From the human T2T-CHM13v2.0 reference genome, Homo sapiens: a DNA stretch of 64,000 nt. Location of the stretch: positions 60,672,001 through 60,736,000 of the forward strand of contig CP086569.2 of the NCBI GenBank assembly GCA_009914755.4, written 5' to 3'. Every line of letters starts with the position of its first letter. The stretch's first letter is position 1. This document shows, piece by piece, positions 27,096 to 37,442 of this stretch. A program made the translations under genes and the position numbers. The notes beneath the pieces were generated by a model. The model did no database searches. It was not told where the DNA came from and saw only the letters and a program-made list of their open reading frames with translations.

Positions 27096-28923
27096 AGATC
27101 CATATTTTGTAAATGAAAAAAAATTTCAAAGGTACTCTGCTTGGTACAATAATCAAATGTATAAACTGAGGAATAAAACATAACCATGAAACCTACTTAT
27201 AACTGCATATGGAAAATACAGAGGATAATTTTTTAAATAACATATTTTGAAAGCCTTAACTAGTAATTTGAAGAGTTGGCATTTGAAAGGCCAGTATGAA
27301 TATTCCTTCAGAGCAGCAACACAGGTTCCCCATGAGAAAAAGCAAACTCAGGGAAAATGAAACCACAAAGGTTCAATCTCTTCTGACCTTTGAAAGACAC
27401 AGCACAGACAGTGGTCCTTAGGACGAAGAGCAGGAGACCCCTAATTCCGTCACCATGGCGATAGGGCATAAACATTGCTGGGTGAGGGCACAGTCCACAT
27501 TGTGAGGTCCAACTGCTGCCAGGAAGACAGGAGTGCTTTTACATAGACCGAAAGGTCATTGAAGGCTCAGAGTTTTGTTTCAAGAACTGAATCCCAAGCC
27601 CACACGTTATTAGGCTGCGCTTCTTAAAACAAGTTATGAGATGGGAAAAAGGGCACCCACAAACATACGTATACATTATGTATATAATAATATACAGTAT
27701 CATATATATAATATATATAACCTGTATATAATATTGTTTTACATCCTGCATCTTATATTATATATATTGTGTAAAATATAATAATTGATAATATATAAGT
27801 TTTATATTTATACAATATGACATATAGTATATATTATAATTTATGACATATATAATATATGTTATATATAATATATAGAATATATTATACGGTTAATATA
27901 CGTATTAAATATAAATTATACATTATATATATTATATATAATAAATCTGTTATATATAATACCCATTATACATAATATATATATTATGTCTATGTTTTAT
28001 ATAGTATAAACCAACATATAATAATATATAATTGTATATATAAAATGTGACATATAATATATATTATATTTTATGACATATGTAACATGTATTATATATT
28101 ATATATATTACGTTGTATGTATAATACCTATATTAAATATATATTATATGACGATGTTATTAATTACATGTCACATATGTTATATATTATATATTTTACA
28201 TGGAATATACCGGTTACATATAATATATACTATGTTACCTATAATGTATAATTTATTACATGTAATATAATGAATGTCATTTATTATATATAATTTATAA
28301 TATACAATATGTGGAATGTGATATATATAACATATATGATATATGATATAAAGTATATGATATATAACATACAATATATGATACGTAATATATATGGTAT
28401 ACAATATATATTTTATGATATGTATTCTATATGTTTTATATTCTGTTATATATAACTATTTGAAATTATATATAACTGTATAATATTTTATGTAAATATG
28501 TAATATAATATATATAACTATATAATATATTATATATAACTATATTTTATGTTATATATACTTTTATAACATAATTTACATAAAATATAATAATATAAAA
28601 TATATTATATTATTTCATATTACATAATATATATTCAATATCACCCAATATAAGTAACATACATACTATTAAAATATAGATTATATTATGTTATATTAAA
28701 TATCATATATATCATGTATCATATATTCTATAATATATATTATGCATTATATAATATGCATGTTGTCTATTATGTGATATATATAACTATATATATAATT
28801 GTATTATTATACATATAACTATATAAACATGTAATTCTATATATTTTCATTTATAATATATAGAATTATATAATCATAATTATTTATATTCTATAAAAAA
28901 TTATATCATTATATAAATTATAA
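26804..28923. repeat. DYZ2-type unit U12 (2120 bp). Its 3' end is truncated, and its AT-rich block is noticeably more diverged than interior units.
   Basis: Alu at 26804-27095 and core are present. The AT-rich block stops about 290 bp short, at 28923/28924. Confidence 0.85.
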
Positions 28924-30508
28924 TGAGATGGGAAATAGGGCACACACAAACATACGTATACATTATGTATATAATAATATACAGTATCATATATATAACA
29001 TATATAACCTATGTATAATATTGTTTTACATCCTGCATCTTATATTATATATATTGTATATAATATAATAATTGATAATATATAAGTTTTATATTTATAC
29101 AATATGACATATAATATATATTATATTTTATAACATATATAATATATATTATATATCATATATAATATATTATATGGTTAATATACGTATTAAATATAAA
29201 ATATATATTATAAGTATTATATATAGTGTACCTAAGTTATATATAATATACCCTATATATAATATATATATTATGTCTATGTTATATATAGTATAAAACA
29301 ACATATAATAATATATAATTTTATATATAAAATATGACATATAATATATATTATATTTTATGACCTGTATAATTTATATTATATATTATATACAATACGT
29401 TGTATGTATAATATATATATTAAATATATATTATATGACTATGTTATTAATTATATGTCATATATGTTATATATTATATATTTTACATAGAATATACTGG
29501 TTATATATAATATATACTATGTTACCTATAATGTATAATTTATTACATATAATATAATGTATGTCATATATTATATATAATTTATAATATACAATATGTG
29601 GAATATGATATATATAACATATAATATATGATATATGATATACAATATATGATATATAATATACAATATATGATACATGATATATATGGTATACAATATA
29701 TATTTTATGATATGTATTATATATGTTTTATATTATGTTATATATAAGTATGTGAAATAATATATAACTGTATAATATTTTATGTAATTATGTAATATAA
29801 TATATATAACTATGAAATATATTATATATAACTATAAATTATGTCTTATATAGTTTTATTACACTTTACATAAAATATCATAATATAATATATATTATAT
29901 TATTTTATATTACATAATATATATTATATATCACATAATATAAGTTACATACATAATATTAAAATATAGATTATATTATGATGTATTAAATATCATATAT
30001 ATCATGTATCATATATTGTATAATATATATTATACATTTTATATTATATATGTTGTCTATTATGTGATATATATAATTATATATATATCACATTATTATA
30101 CATATAACTACATAAAGATGTAATTCCATATGTTTTCATTTACAGTATATATAATTATATAATCATATATATTTATTTATATTCTAGAAAAAATTATATC
30201 TTTATATAAATAATAATATATAAAAATTATAATATGTACTAAAATATATATATTATATATCATATATGATATAGTATATTTGTTATATATCATATTACAT
30301 ATAACTATATATTATGTTATCTATAATAATATATTTTCATATATAAGATGTATAATATGTATTATATATTATAAATGTTATGTAATATATATAGTATACA
30401 TAAGATGACACAGGATAAATATTATATACTATGACATATAAAATATATGAGGTTATATGTTACATATAAGGCATAGCACATAACATGCAATATTTATGAT
30501 ATATATTA
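28924..30508. repeat. DYZ2-type partial unit U13 (1585 bp). It has no Alu and only the last ~35 bp of the core.
   Basis: The sequence jumps from the AT-rich context 'aaattataat' straight into 'gagatgggaaatagggcac', which is the core/AT-rich boundary. A full AT-rich block follows, more diverged than interior copies. Confidence 0.85.
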
Positions 30509-34663: not shown

Positions 34664-34672
34664 GGACTCCTT
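34655..34672. other. Direct junction between the AT-rich/Alu satellite (DYZ2-type) and the GGAAT satellite (DYZ1-type). No spacer, with at most 2 bp of microhomology.
   Basis: The sequence reads '...ccataataaatcat|atggactcctttggaatggtctagtatgcaatgc...'. The left side is collinear with the AT-rich block (compare '...attttattacgtacattcaataatatatcataatat' at 32250). The right side is collinear with a mid-unit DYZ1 position (compare 40981-41010). Confidence 0.85.
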
Positions 34673-37442
34673 TGGAATGGTCTAGTATGCAATGCAATCG
34701 ACTGGCAGGGAATTAAAAGGAATGCAATCGAATGGATTGCACAGGAATGCAATGGACTCGAATAGATTGGAAACAGAATGCAAAGGAATGGAATGGAATA
34801 GTATGGAATGGAATGGAAAGGAATGGAGTGGAATAGACTAGAGTAGAACGGAATTTACTCGAAAGCAATGGACTGGAATAGAACTTTCTTGAATGGGCTG
34901 GAATCAAACGGAATGGAATGCTGTGCAATCAAATAGAATGAAAGAGAATCAAATCCAATCGAATGGATTGGAAAGGAATTGACTGAAATGGAATGGACTA
35001 GAATGGAAGGCAAAGGAATGGAATCTATAGGAATGGACTGTAATGGAATGGAATGGAAGGGATTGGAATGGAATCGAATGGAATGGACTGCAATAGAAAG
35101 GATTCGAATGGAATGAAAAAGAATTGAATGGAATAGAACAGAATGGAATCAAATCGAATGAAATGGAATGGAATAGAAAGGATTCGAATGGAATGCAATC
35201 GAACGGAATGGAATCGAACGGAATGGAATAAAATGGAAGAAAACTGGCAAGAAATGGAATCGAAATGAATGGAGTGTTATGGAACGGACTCAAAAGGAAT
35301 TGAATGTAATAGAATGGAGTGGAGTGGACTCGAATATAATGGACTGGAATGGAATGAAATCACATGGAATGGGAACGAATGGAATGGAATGGAAAGGAAT
35401 GGAATCGAATGGAAAGGAATCGAATGGAAGGGAATGAAATTGAATCAACAGGAATGGAAGGGAATAGAATAGACGGTAAAGGAATGGACTCGAATAGAAT
35501 GGACACGAATGCTCAAATTGAATGGACTCGAATGGAATGGAAACGAAAGGAATGTCATCGAATGTAATTGAATCGATTGGAATGAAATCGCATAGAATGG
35601 AGTGGAATCAAATGGAATTGAGTCGAAAGCAAAGGAAGCGAATGGACTGAAATGAAATGGAATGGAATGGAATGGAAAGTAATGCAATGGAATAGAATGG
35701 AACGAAATTTCACGGAATGGAATCAAACTGAATGGAATCAAATCAATGGAATCAAATCAAATGGAATGGAAAGGAATTGAATGGAGTAGATGGGATTGGA
35801 TGGGATCGGAATGAAATGTACTGGAAAGAAATCGAATTTCATGAAACGGAATGGAATGAATTGGAACGGAATGGACTCGAATGGAATGGAATGTCATGGA
35901 ATGGCATCAAATGGAATGGCATCAAACGGAATGGAATCGAATGCAATGGAATGCTATGGAATGGAATGGAATGCATTGGAATGGAATGTCCTCTAATGGA
36001 ATGGATTCGAGTGGAATGGAATCGAATATAATGGAGTCGAATGAAATGGAATTGAAAGGAATGGGACCGAATACAATGGAATATACTGGAATGTAATGTA
36101 ATGAACTCGAATGTAATTGACTGCAATGGAATGTACATGAATGGAATGTAATCGAATGGAAAGTAATCGAATGGAATAGAATCTAATGCAATAAAATCGA
36201 CTCAAATAGAATAGAATGTAATGGAATGGAGTGCAGTGCAATGGAATGGAATGGAATGGAATGCAGTGGAATGGAATGGAATGGAATGCAATGGAATGGA
36301 ATGTATTAGAATGTAATGAACTTTAATGGAATGTACTCGAATGGATTCGACTGGAATGGAATGTTCTGGAAGTTTATGGACTCCAATGGAATAGATTCGA
36401 AAGGAATGGAATCGAACGGAATGGAATCTAATGGAATGGAATTAAATGGAAATGAATCAAATTGAATAGCACGGAATTGAATTGAATGGAATAGAATGCA
36501 ATGTAATCTAATGAAACAGAAAGGAAAGGAATGGAATGGAATGGAATGGGCTGGAATGGAATGGAATCGAAACGAATGGAATGGAATCGAACTAAAGAGA
36601 CTGGAATGGAATGCACTGGAATGGAAGGGAGTGTAATGGAAGGTTCTCGAAAAAAATGGAATCGAATGGAATGGAATTGAATGGAACGGAATAGAGTCGA
36701 ATGGAATTGAATGGAATGGAATGGACTAGAGTGAAATGGAATCGAACCACAAGGAATGGACAGGAATAGAATGGTCTCGAATTGAATGGAATCGTATGGA
36801 ATGGCATCAAACGGAATGGAATGGACAGCCACGGAATGGAATGCACTCGAATGCAATGGAGTCGAAACTAATGGACTGGAATAGAATGGACTCGACTGGT
36901 ACGGACTCCAATGGAATGGAATCGAATGGAAGGGAATCGAACGGAATGGACTCGAAGGGAAAAGACTGCAATGGAAAGGTCTCGAATGGAATGGAAATTA
37001 ATGGAATGGAATGGAATCGAATGAAGTGGAGTCAAAAGGAATGGAATCGAATGGCAAGAAATCGAATGTAGTGGAATCGCAAGGAATTGATGTGAACGGA
37101 ACGGAATGGAATGGAATCCAAAGGAATGGAATAGAATGGAATGGAATCAAATGGAAAGGACTCGAATGGAAATCACTCGAATAGAATGCAATTTAATAAA
37201 ATAGGATCAAATGTAATGGAATGGAATGGAAAGGAATCGAAACGAAAGGAATGGAGACAGATGGAATGGAATGGAACAGAGAGCAATGGTATAGAATGGA
37301 ATGGAATCATCTGGAATGGAATTGAATGGAATGCAATAACATGAAATGGAATGGAATGGAATGGAATGCCCTTGAATTAAATGGACTGGAATGGAATGGA
37401 CTCGAACAGAGTGTAATGGAAAGTGTTGAAATAGAATGGAAT
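34664..37442 (+). repeat. DYZ1-type unit D0 (2779 bp). This junction-adjacent unit is more diverged and carries a ~680-bp internal deletion.
   Basis: It matches D1 at offset 2864-2869 up to about 36265, and at offset 3544 after about 36300. The D1 segment from about 39165 to 39845 has no counterpart in D0. Confidence 0.85.

What the first reader, a model, noticed from the sequence alone, without database searches (positions are those of the whole stretch)
27700..37442. Edge effect: both arrays become diverged, truncated and rearranged within about 7 kb (DYZ2 side) and about 3 kb (DYZ1 side) of the junction
Interior units U1-U11 differ at only scattered positions. From about 27700 onward the AT-rich blocks accumulate many substitutions and indels. 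U12 loses its last ~290 bp. U13 lacks the Alu and about 535 bp of core. U14 and U15 cores are several percent diverged; the ORF-track peptide at 31014 differs at about 12 of 61 residues. On the other side, D0 is the most diverged DYZ1 unit and carries a ~680-bp deletion. At the diagnostic site the edge units keep an apparently ancestral state ('aaactcagggaaaataaaaccac' in U14, 'aaacttagggaaaataaaaccac' in U15), intermediate between the two homogenized interior types. This is the expected signature of unequal-crossover homogenization being efficient in array interiors and weak at boundaries.
Basis: seen in the sequence. Interest (0 to 1): 0.5.

Follow-up and report, generated by a model that had tools for sequence, protein, structure and literature searches.

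The report
Diverged relic units at DYZ2/DYZ1 junction
At the point where two human Y-chromosome satellite arrays meet, the last four DYZ2 repeat units are old, mutually divergent and partly deleted copies, while the DYZ1 side is barely affected; this is the already published pattern of homogeneous array middles and diverged array edges.

Summary
The window is a Yq12-type DYZ2 (HSat1B, 2.42-kb unit) array. It joins DYZ1 (HSat3, about 3.54-kb unit) directly at base 34,662.

**DYZ2 side: confirmed.**
- Divergence from the interior consensus is 1.07-1.68% for U1-U11, 2.15% for U12, 6.8% for U13, 8.5% for U14 and 8.3% for U15.
- Onset is near 27,900, about 6.8 kb from the junction.
- The U12 and U13 "truncations" are one 1,122-bp deletion.
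- Edge units branch basally and differ 8.7-11.9% from each other.
- At 27 sites separating canonical DYZ2 from a second HSat1B subfamily, U14 and U15 carry 17 and 16 second-subfamily states. Interior units carry 0-5.
- The U14 diagnostic state is the commonest in 77 external DYZ2 copies. The local U5-U12 type was seen in none.

**DYZ1 side: weak.**
- D0 has the 680-bp deletion, but excess substitutions are confined to its first ~0.5 kb (4.4% against 0.55%). The rest is ordinary (p=0.42).
- Interior unit D4 also carries a ~585-bp deletion.

No inversions were found.

The homogenisation reading fits, but the mechanism cannot be resolved here. Hallast et al. 2023 already describe this pattern for Yq12 arrays. 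It is real, ordinary and already known.

The parts
1..27695 (+). Homogeneous interior of the DYZ2 (HSat1B) array: units U1 (partial) to U11, plus the Alu and core of U12. Each unit is about 118 bp AT-rich DNA, an antisense Alu fragment (~352 bp), a GC-richer core (~540 bp) and a ~1.41-kb AT-rich block.
   Evidence: Periods are 2418-2422 bp. Units are 1.07-1.68% from consensus. Sub-blocks are U1-U4 (type A), U5-U6 and U8-U10, with 0.4-0.7% between neighbours.
15889..16058 (+). 170-bp insertion in interior unit U7, an imperfect local duplication of AT-rich DNA. It is a counter-example to 'interior differs only at scattered positions'.
   Evidence: TRF period 111 at 15788-16061.
27696..28922 (+). 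AT-rich block of U12. This is the first segment with raised divergence (3.1%, with 5-bp and 4-bp deletions) and marks the onset of the edge zone.
   Evidence: p=3e-5.
28921..28924 (+). Breakpoint of a single 1,122-bp deletion. It joins consensus position ~2248 of U12 to position 951 of the next unit, with 2-bp (AT) microhomology. It removes the AT-rich tail, the Alu and ~480 bp of core.
   Evidence: Local alignments overlap by 2 bp. No mir-1268/Alu hit falls in U13.
28923..30388 (+). U13, a truncated unit (consensus 951-2420), 6.8% diverged with 7 indel events.
   Evidence: It is 7.6-8.3% from interior units and 11.2-11.9% from U14 and U15.
30389..32779 (+). U14, a full-length relic unit. It is 8.55% diverged overall (Alu 3.4%, core 6.1%, AT-rich 11.3%) with 16 indel events.
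   Evidence: It shares 7-bp and 22-bp deletions with U15. It has 17 of 27 second-subfamily states. An independent contig, L045, reproduces 31,500-32,300 with 3 mismatches.
32780..34662 (+). U15, the last DYZ2 unit. It is cut off at consensus ~1912 by the DYZ1 junction and is 8.4% diverged (core 5.2%, AT-rich 12.2%).
   Evidence: It has 16 of 27 second-subfamily states.
34660..34664 (+). Sharp DYZ2/DYZ1 junction (…AATAAATCATA|TGGACTCCTTTGGAATGG…). Homology to both consensus sequences meets within 1-3 bp, with no filler DNA.
34664..35150 (+). Head of DYZ1 unit D0, the only DYZ1 segment with clearly raised substitutions (4.4% against 0.55%). It also carries a 20-bp deletion at 34,975; a second, 25-bp deletion lies just beyond this segment, at 35,176.
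   Evidence: p=1.5e-9.
36246..36299 (+). Breakpoint of the 680-bp deletion in D0 (consensus 1696-2375). It lies in a (GGAAT)n run where the two parental sites are 48/54 identical, so the deletion is homology-mediated and keeps the pentamer register.
34664..37442 (+). D0, the first DYZ1 unit (2,779 bp). Its last ~2.3 kb is as similar to the consensus as interior units are.
48099..51061 (+). D4, an interior DYZ1 unit with ~585 bp deleted (40+395+150 bp). It is a counter-example showing that large deletions are not edge-specific.

Best explanation
The four DYZ2 units nearest the junction (U12 AT-block, U13, U14, U15) are old relic copies that have dropped out of the turnover that keeps the array interior uniform.

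In the interior, units are continually duplicated, deleted and overwritten in register. The likely processes are unequal sister-chromatid exchange, local tandem duplication and gene conversion. New variants therefore spread over runs of neighbours, and old ones are lost.

A unit at the end of an array has a homologous partner on one side only, and beyond it lies unrelated DYZ1. It is therefore rarely replaced. It keeps older states, gains private substitutions and indels, and becomes a progressively poorer recombination partner.

The DYZ1 side shows the same effect only within about 0.5 kb of the junction. Its deletions are ordinary out-of-register pentamer events that also occur in the interior.

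What is shown: the divergence staircase, the basal placement, the lack of homogenisation among edge units, and the spread of local variants in the interior. What is inferred: the recombinational mechanism and why it fails at edges.
For: - Staircase of divergence: 1.3% to 2.15% to 6.8% to 8.5% and 8.3%.
- Interior neighbours are near-identical in blocks: U8-U10 0.4-0.5%, U2-U3 0.7%. Unit length is preserved at 2418-2422 bp.
- A private local variant (type B, G at the diagnostic site) occupies 8 adjacent units but none of 77 external copies.
- Edge units are mutually divergent, at 8.7-11.9%.
- Shared states are nested against all of U1-U11: 6 sites for U12+13+14+15, 14 for U13+14+15 and 30 for U14+15. 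Private differences number 96, 76, 37 and 23.
- U12, U13 and (U14,U15) are basal in the neighbour-joining tree.
- In the Alu+core tree with 53 external copies, interior units sit with canonical DYZ2. U14 and U15 sit at the base of the second subfamily, carrying 17 and 16 of 27 of its diagnostic states.
- At one Alu site, U1p, U12, U14 and U15 keep the Alu-consensus base and U2-U11 share a derived base.
- The D0 and D4 deletions are multiples of 5 bp between near-identical pentamer runs.
- Published description and the same interpretation for Yq12 arrays: Hallast et al., 10.1101/2022.12.01.518658.
- Unequal exchange and sister-chromatid exchange in Yq12: Rhie et al., 10.1101/2022.12.01.518724.
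- Gene conversion among Yq12 de novo events: PMC13252187.
Against: - Only one end of each array lies in the window, so symmetry cannot be checked.
- The largest jump (3.3% to 7%) coincides with the 1,122-bp deletion. Part of the staircase could therefore reflect loss of intermediate units or juxtaposition, not a smooth gradient.
- The DYZ1 side shows almost no gradient.
- Polarity rests on very few outgroup-informative sites: 1-3 ancestral against 3-5 derived per edge unit in the Alu.
- No recombination event is observed directly.
Confidence: 0.75

Rival explanations
1. Juxtaposition instead of in-situ escape. U13-U15 would be a remnant of a separate, older HSat1B array of the second subfamily type. 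A block-level deletion or duplication placed it next to a canonical DYZ2 array. The 'gradient' would then be a boundary between two arrays of different age.
For: U14 and U15 carry 16-17 of 27 second-subfamily states, and their best external matches are copies of that subfamily. The jump in divergence coincides with the 1,122-bp deletion breakpoint at 28,922/28,923. Multi-block duplications of up to 5 Mb are documented in Yq12.
Against: U12's AT-block is already intermediate (3.1%) before the breakpoint. Six sites are shared by U12-U15 against U1-U11. U14 and U15 are mosaics with 8-9 canonical states, and lie 38 and 31 differences from the second-subfamily consensus, so they are not members of it. 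U13 is closer to the interior (7.6-8.3%) than to U14 and U15 (11-12%).
Confidence: 0.2
2. Local mutagenesis or artefact. Raised divergence near the junction would come from error-prone repair or replication at a heterologous satellite boundary, or from assembly or sequencing error. It would not reflect age.
For: Yq12 has a very high de novo variant load (49 of 53 Y-linked events). The D0 excess is tightly confined to ~0.5 kb next to the junction.
Against: - 50+ differences are shared among edge units in nested fashion.
- About 40% of the U14 and U15 Alu+core differences from canonical DYZ2 are states of an independent subfamily.
- The transition:transversion ratio is ~1 in both edge and interior.
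- Differences are mainly substitutions, not homopolymer indels.
- An unrelated metagenome contig reproduces 800 bp of U14 with 3 mismatches.
Confidence: 0.05
3. There is no real edge effect on the DYZ1 side. D0 is an ordinary unit that happens to carry a deletion, plus a short diverged stub at the fusion point.
For: D0 beyond its first 500 columns is 1.32% against 1.14% for other units (p=0.42), or 2.5% against 2.0% pairwise, within range. Interior D4 has a comparable deletion and is the second most diverged unit. D0 clusters with its neighbours D1 and D2, not basally.
Against: The first ~435 aligned bases are 4.4% against 0.55% (p=1.5e-9). D0 has the most private substitutions, 1.48% against at most 0.81%.
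Confidence: 0.6

Closest known systems
Yq12 DYZ1/DYZ2 array organisation described by Hallast et al. 2023 (10.1101/2022.12.01.518658) and Rhie et al. 2023 (10.1101/2022.12.01.518724)
   Same: The satellites, the unit sizes and the composite DYZ2 structure (AT-rich block, Alu fragment, HSATI-like core) all match. The published statement is also the same: units in the middle of an array are more alike, and divergent units accumulate toward the periphery, attributed to expansion and contraction in the middle.
   Different: Nothing differs in kind. This window gives a base-level view of one junction: a 1,122-bp deletion, a sharp join with 1-3 bp of microhomology, and strong asymmetry between the DYZ2 and DYZ1 sides. 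Those papers do not spell this out in the text I read.
Alpha-satellite higher-order-repeat arrays with diverged or monomeric flanks (the 'layered expansion' picture of human centromeres; established knowledge, and stated for DYZ3)
   Same: A homogeneous core is flanked by increasingly divergent, older units, and the edge units branch basally.
   Different: The satellite family and unit size differ. Here the flank is another homogeneous satellite, not monomeric satellite or unique DNA. The diverged zone is only ~7 kb (four units) long.
Theory of tandem-array homogenisation by unequal crossing-over (Smith 1976; Stephan 1989; cited from my own knowledge, not read here)
   Same: The theory predicts lower exchange and higher divergence at array ends. 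It also predicts local runs of identical neighbours.
   Different: The theory is a model. The window cannot show that unequal exchange is the operative process, as opposed to gene conversion or replication-based amplification.

Membership tests
DYZ2 / HSat1B satellite | Tandem unit of ~2.4 kb (published consensus 2,420 bp) | tested here: met
   Dominant 20-mer spacings are 2418-2422 bp. The interior consensus built here is 2,420 bp.
DYZ2 / HSat1B satellite | Composite unit: a very AT-rich block, a diverged Alu fragment and a GC-richer HSATI-like segment | tested here: met
   GC profile and sequence. Alignment to Alu consensus sequences written from memory. Sub-threshold hits to Alu-derived mir-1268 on the minus strand at the same place in U11, U12, U14 and U15. 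The published 'ACATACG' motif at the core/AT-rich boundary is present in the consensus.
DYZ2 / HSat1B satellite | Near-identity to independent human DYZ2 copies | tested here: met
   Contaminant contigs in bacterial and metagenome assemblies match U2-U4 at 99.2-99.6% over up to 2.5 kb. Such contamination by HSat1B is documented. No annotated human reference was available to the tools.
DYZ1 / HSat3 satellite | Nested tandem repeat of ~3.5-3.6 kb built from GGAAT/CATTC pentamers | tested here: met
   TRF pentamer-multiple periods over 34,687-63,995. Higher-order spacings are 3499-3579 bp.
Satellite-array edge divergence gradient | Interior units are more similar to each other than to edge units | tested here: met
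   DYZ2: interior pairs 0.4-3.0%, edge against interior 2.9-10.5%. DYZ1: D0 2.4-3.4% against 1.0-2.6%, a weak difference.
Satellite-array edge divergence gradient | Divergence rises progressively toward the boundary over several units | tested here: met
   DYZ2: 1.3, 2.15, 6.8, 8.5 and 8.3%. DYZ1 does not meet this: only the first ~0.5 kb is raised.
Satellite-array edge divergence gradient | Edge units branch basally and retain older states | tested here: met
   Neighbour-joining trees. Subfamily-diagnostic states. Diagnostic 23-mer frequencies. True-outgroup (Alu) support is thin.
Satellite-array edge divergence gradient | The same pattern at the other end of the array and at other arrays | not testable with these tools
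   Only one end of each array lies in the window, and no human genome collection is available. The junction 29-32-mers were not found in any collection.
Homogenisation by unequal exchange | Directly observed exchange, duplication or conversion events that are more frequent in the interior than at the edges | not testable with these tools
   This needs comparison of orthologous arrays across Y haplogroups or pedigrees. Only indirect signs are seen here: runs of near-identical neighbours and the spread of type B.

The most novel reading that the evidence does not exclude
U13-U15 would not simply be decayed local copies. They would be a preserved fragment of the ancestral HSat1B lineage, predating the split between canonical Y DYZ2 and the second widespread subfamily. 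This fragment would have been frozen at the original DYZ2-DYZ1 fusion point and copied along Yq12 with block duplications. Junction relics could then be used to reconstruct the founding fusion and the order of block duplications. The near-perfect 800-bp match of L045 to U14, with divergent flanks, hints that paralogues of this relic exist elsewhere.
Probability: 0.3. Interest if true: 0.35.

Novelty: already known. Interest (0 to 1): 0.15.

Why it matters
It gives a clean, base-level example of differential turnover inside a human satellite array. It also shows a clear asymmetry: four relic units on the DYZ2 side against about 0.5 kb on the DYZ1 side. It does not change understanding, because the pattern and its interpretation are published for exactly these arrays. 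Practical uses are modest. Junction relics are locally unique sequence in an otherwise unmappable region. They could serve as anchors for assembly validation, read mapping, or tracing block duplications in Yq12.

Tried and rejected
- **Junction searches.** I searched the junction 32-mer and 29-mer in genome contigs, metagenome contigs and viral contigs to find paralogous or orthologous junctions. There were no hits.
- **Long external contigs.** I tried L018, L060 and L029 as independent array edges. They are noisy long-read assemblies with 150-230 gap openings per unit, so their 'divergence' is error.
- **MAFFT distances for DYZ1.** The multiple alignment inflated D4 to ~5% by misplacing its deletion. 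I replaced it with pairwise-to-consensus alignment, which gives 1.42%.
- **Inversions.** I looked for inversions or rearrangements in the edge zone. Only ~71-75% minus-strand AT-rich self-matches appear, and interior U7 has them too.
- **Alu-consensus polarisation.** Too few informative sites to be decisive.
- **Substitution spectrum.** I used it to test the artefact and mutagenesis readings. The transition:transversion ratio is ~1 in both classes. Only a GC-to-AT excess in the edge units stands out.
- **The 61-aa ORF.** I treated it as a mechanical ORF in satellite DNA. It was used only as a divergence read-out and was not pursued as a gene.
- **Dating.** I did not date the units with a molecular clock, because satellite and CpG mutation rates make it unreliable.

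
Full report
**What the window is**

Bases 1-34,662 are a tandem array with a 2,418-2,422-bp period. Each unit has about 118 bp of AT-rich DNA, an antisense Alu fragment, a ~540-bp GC-richer core and a ~1.4-kb block of more than 85% AT. 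Sub-threshold matches to the Alu-derived mir-1268 model mark the Alu position on the minus strand.

Bases 34,662-64,000 are GGAAT pentamers with a higher-order period of 3,499-3,579 bp.

These features match the published descriptions of DYZ2/HSat1B and DYZ1/HSat3 in human Yq12: unit sizes, the three-part DYZ2 unit, the 2,420-bp consensus and the ACATACG motif at the core/AT-rich boundary. Contigs of human contamination in bacterial and metagenome assemblies match the interior units at 99.2-99.6%. That kind of contamination is itself documented.

**Segmentation**

- In my phase, the DYZ2 units are U1 (partial) 1-2319, then U2 to U12 starting at 2320, 4742, 7162, 9582, 12001, 14422, 17012, 19430, 21848, 24266 and 26686.
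- The last three are U13 28,923-30,388, U14 30,389-32,779 and U15 32,780-34,662.
- The DYZ1 units are D0 34,664-37,442, then D1 to D8 starting at 37,443, 40,987, 44,535, 48,099, 51,062, 54,600, 58,139 and 61,638.

**The DYZ2 side**

I built a consensus from nine complete interior units and aligned every unit to it. The percentages below are substitutions.

| Unit(s) | Divergence | Notes |
|---|---|---|
| U1-U11 | 1.07-1.68% | mean 1.31, sd 0.20 |
| U12 | 2.15% | Alu and core normal, AT-rich block 3.1% |
| U13 | 6.77% | truncated unit |
| U14 | 8.55% | Alu 3.4%, core 6.1%, AT-rich 11.3% |
| U15 | 8.41% | Alu 2.6%, core 5.2%, AT-rich 12.2% |

- Indel events number 0-2 per unit in U1-U12. They number 7, 16 and 7 in U13, U14 and U15.
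- Leave-one-out majority comparison gives the same numbers, so the result is not an artefact of how the consensus was built.
- In 300-bp bins the rise begins at about 27,900, reaches ~7% through U13 and 9-14% in the AT-rich parts of U14 and U15.
- Pooled tests are decisive: p=2e-142 for U13-15, and p=3e-5 for the U12 AT block.
- The claimed onset (~27,700) and extent (~7 kb) are therefore right.

**The truncations**

- U12 aligns to consensus 1-2248 and U13 begins at consensus 951. The two alignments overlap by 2 bp.
It removed the tail of one unit and the Alu plus ~480 bp of core of the next.
- U15 is cut at consensus ~1912 by DYZ1. DYZ2 and DYZ1 homology meet within 1-3 bp, with no filler.
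- I found no inversions, so 'rearranged' is not supported.

**Relationships among the units**

- Interior pairwise distances are 0.4-3.0%, with blocks of near-identical neighbours: U8-U10 at 0.4-0.5% and U2-U3 at 0.7%.
- The edge units are 8.7-11.9% from one another.
- In the neighbour-joining tree U12 is sister to the U1-U11 clade, followed by U13 and then (U14,U15).
- U14 and U15 share 7-bp and 22-bp deletions.
- Differences from the invariant interior state are nested: 6 sites are shared by U12-U15, 14 by U13-U15 and 30 by U14+U15.
- Private differences are far more numerous: 96, 76, 37 and 23 sites.
- The edge units are therefore old lineages that have not been homogenised, either with the interior or with each other.

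**Independent polarity evidence**

- I searched the diagnostic 28-mer, with its variable positions degenerate. It retrieved 69 loci of human DYZ2-like DNA.
- Among the 77 sites in those loci, the U14 state (T-A-C) is the commonest (41) and type A follows (33). The window's type B (U5-U12) is absent.
- Type B is thus a local derived variant that has spread over eight adjacent units. The U14 state is an old, widespread one.
- In an Alu+core tree with 53 external copies, the interior units sit among canonical copies. U14 and U15 attach at the base of a second subfamily.
- At 27 sites diagnostic between the two subfamilies, U14 has 17 second-subfamily states and U15 has 16. Interior units have 0-5.
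- U14 and U15 are nevertheless 38 and 31 differences from the second subfamily's consensus. They are deep, long-branched relics, not members of it.
- Polarisation with Alu consensus sequences, written from memory, is thin. One site shows U1p, U12, U14 and U15 ancestral with U2-U11 sharing a derived base. Three of four informative subfamily sites show the canonical type as derived.
- An unrelated metagenome contig (L045) reproduces window 31,500-32,300 with 3 mismatches. This argues against assembly error in U14.

**Minor claims**

- The quoted 23-mers are exact.
- The mechanical ORF at 31,014-31,199(-) differs at 11-14 of 61 residues from the other units.
- 'Interior units differ only at scattered positions' is not quite right. 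U7 has a 170-bp local duplication at 15,889-16,058.

**The DYZ1 side**

- D0 lacks consensus columns 1696-2375, a 680-bp deletion with its breakpoint at ~36,269. It also has 20-bp and 25-bp deletions.
- D0 is the most diverged unit: 1.80% against the consensus and 1.91% leave-one-out, compared with 0.73-1.42% for the others.
- The excess sits in the first ~435 aligned bases: 4.4% against 0.55%, p=1.5e-9.
- The remaining 2.3 kb is 1.32% against 1.14% for other units (p=0.42). Pairwise it is 2.5% against 2.0%, within range.
- D0 clusters with its neighbours D1 and D2 and does not branch basally.
- Interior unit D4 (48,099-51,061) has lost ~585 bp.
- All these DYZ1 indels are multiples of 5 bp. 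The D0 breakpoint lies between pentamer runs that are 48/54 identical. They are ordinary register-preserving exchange or slippage events, not edge-specific decay.
- The '~3 kb' DYZ1 edge effect is overstated.

**Mechanism**

The pattern fits differential turnover. Interior units are repeatedly replaced in register, so local variants spread. Terminal units have a partner on one side only and drift, becoming ever poorer substrates for exchange.

This is the interpretation published for these very arrays. [quoted passage not shown] Supporting reports cover unequal exchange and sister-chromatid exchange in Yq12 and gene-conversion-like de novo events.

The window cannot tell unequal crossing-over from gene conversion or replication-based amplification.

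A rival reading is that U13-U15 are a juxtaposed remnant of an older array. It draws some support from the coincidence of the largest divergence step with the 1,122-bp deletion. Three observations weigh against it: the intermediate U12 AT block, the nested shared states, and the mosaic nature of U14 and U15.

Local mutagenesis or artefact is unlikely.

**Verdict**

The DYZ2 observation is real and statistically overwhelming. The DYZ1 half is marginal. The phenomenon is already described for Yq12, so interest is low.

Noticed in passing
window 15889-16058 (unit U7): There is a 170-bp insertion in an otherwise ordinary interior DYZ2 unit. It is an imperfect local duplication of the flanking AT-rich DNA (TRF period 111 at 15788-16061), and gives the 2,590-bp spacing seen in the k-mer periods.
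   Followed up: yes
window 48099-51061 (unit D4): This interior DYZ1 unit lacks ~585 bp (gaps of 40, 395 and 150 bp at 49780, 50712 and 50722). All large DYZ1 indels in the window, including those of D0 (20, 25 and 680 bp), are multiples of 5 bp, so they keep the pentamer register.
   Followed up: partly
window 10240-27366 (diagnostic site in U5-U12): The 'type B' state (…GGGAAAATGAAACCAC) occupies eight adjacent units but was found in none of 77 external DYZ2 copies. It is a private local variant that has spread along the array. U7 carries a further private G>A within the same 23-mer.
   Followed up: partly
window ~17-370 (Alu of partial unit U1): This Alu is 4.0% from the interior consensus, against 1.1-2.3% for other interior Alus. 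It has 5 states matching the Alu consensus that U2-U11 lack. It may be a patch from a different DYZ2 variant, or the edge of another sub-block to the left of the window.
   Followed up: no
window 28923-34662 versus 2320-26685: The direction of substitutions relative to the interior consensus differs between the two classes. Edge units show GC-to-AT 194 against AT-to-GC 133. Interior private variants show 83 against 123 (Fisher p=2e-5). U15 Alu+core GC is 40.5% against 42.3-42.6% in the interior. This fits AT-biased decay at the edge, GC-biased conversion in the interior, or both; I could not separate them.
   Followed up: partly
L001-L069 (e.g. L006 5897-6905): Human DYZ2/HSat1B sequence occurs in 17 'bacterial genome' contigs and 52 metagenome contigs. 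One is a 1-kb Alu+core piece (97.7%) inside the 5.16-Mb scaffold NZ_HF570958.1, labelled Nostocoides japonicum. These are contamination or chimeric assembly.
   Followed up: partly
L045 1-2445 versus window 31222-33664: The metagenome contig OGIJ01006428.1 matches window 31,500-32,300 almost perfectly (3 mismatches) but is 5-14% different on both sides. It is either a paralogue of U14 elsewhere in the genome or a chimeric short-read contig.
   Followed up: partly
L044, L050, L056: Some short external contigs carry a canonical (type A) DYZ2 core directly next to a T-A-C-type core. The two variants therefore also lie adjacent elsewhere. The chromosomal home of the second subfamily is unknown.
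   Followed up: no
window 24488-24554, 26908-26974, 30613-30679, 33002-33068 (minus strand): There are sub-threshold Rfam matches to mir-1268 (33.9-35.1 bits against a gathering score of 83) at the Alu fragment of U11, U12, U14 and U15. They reflect the Alu origin of that miRNA family and are not evidence of a miRNA gene.
   Followed up: no
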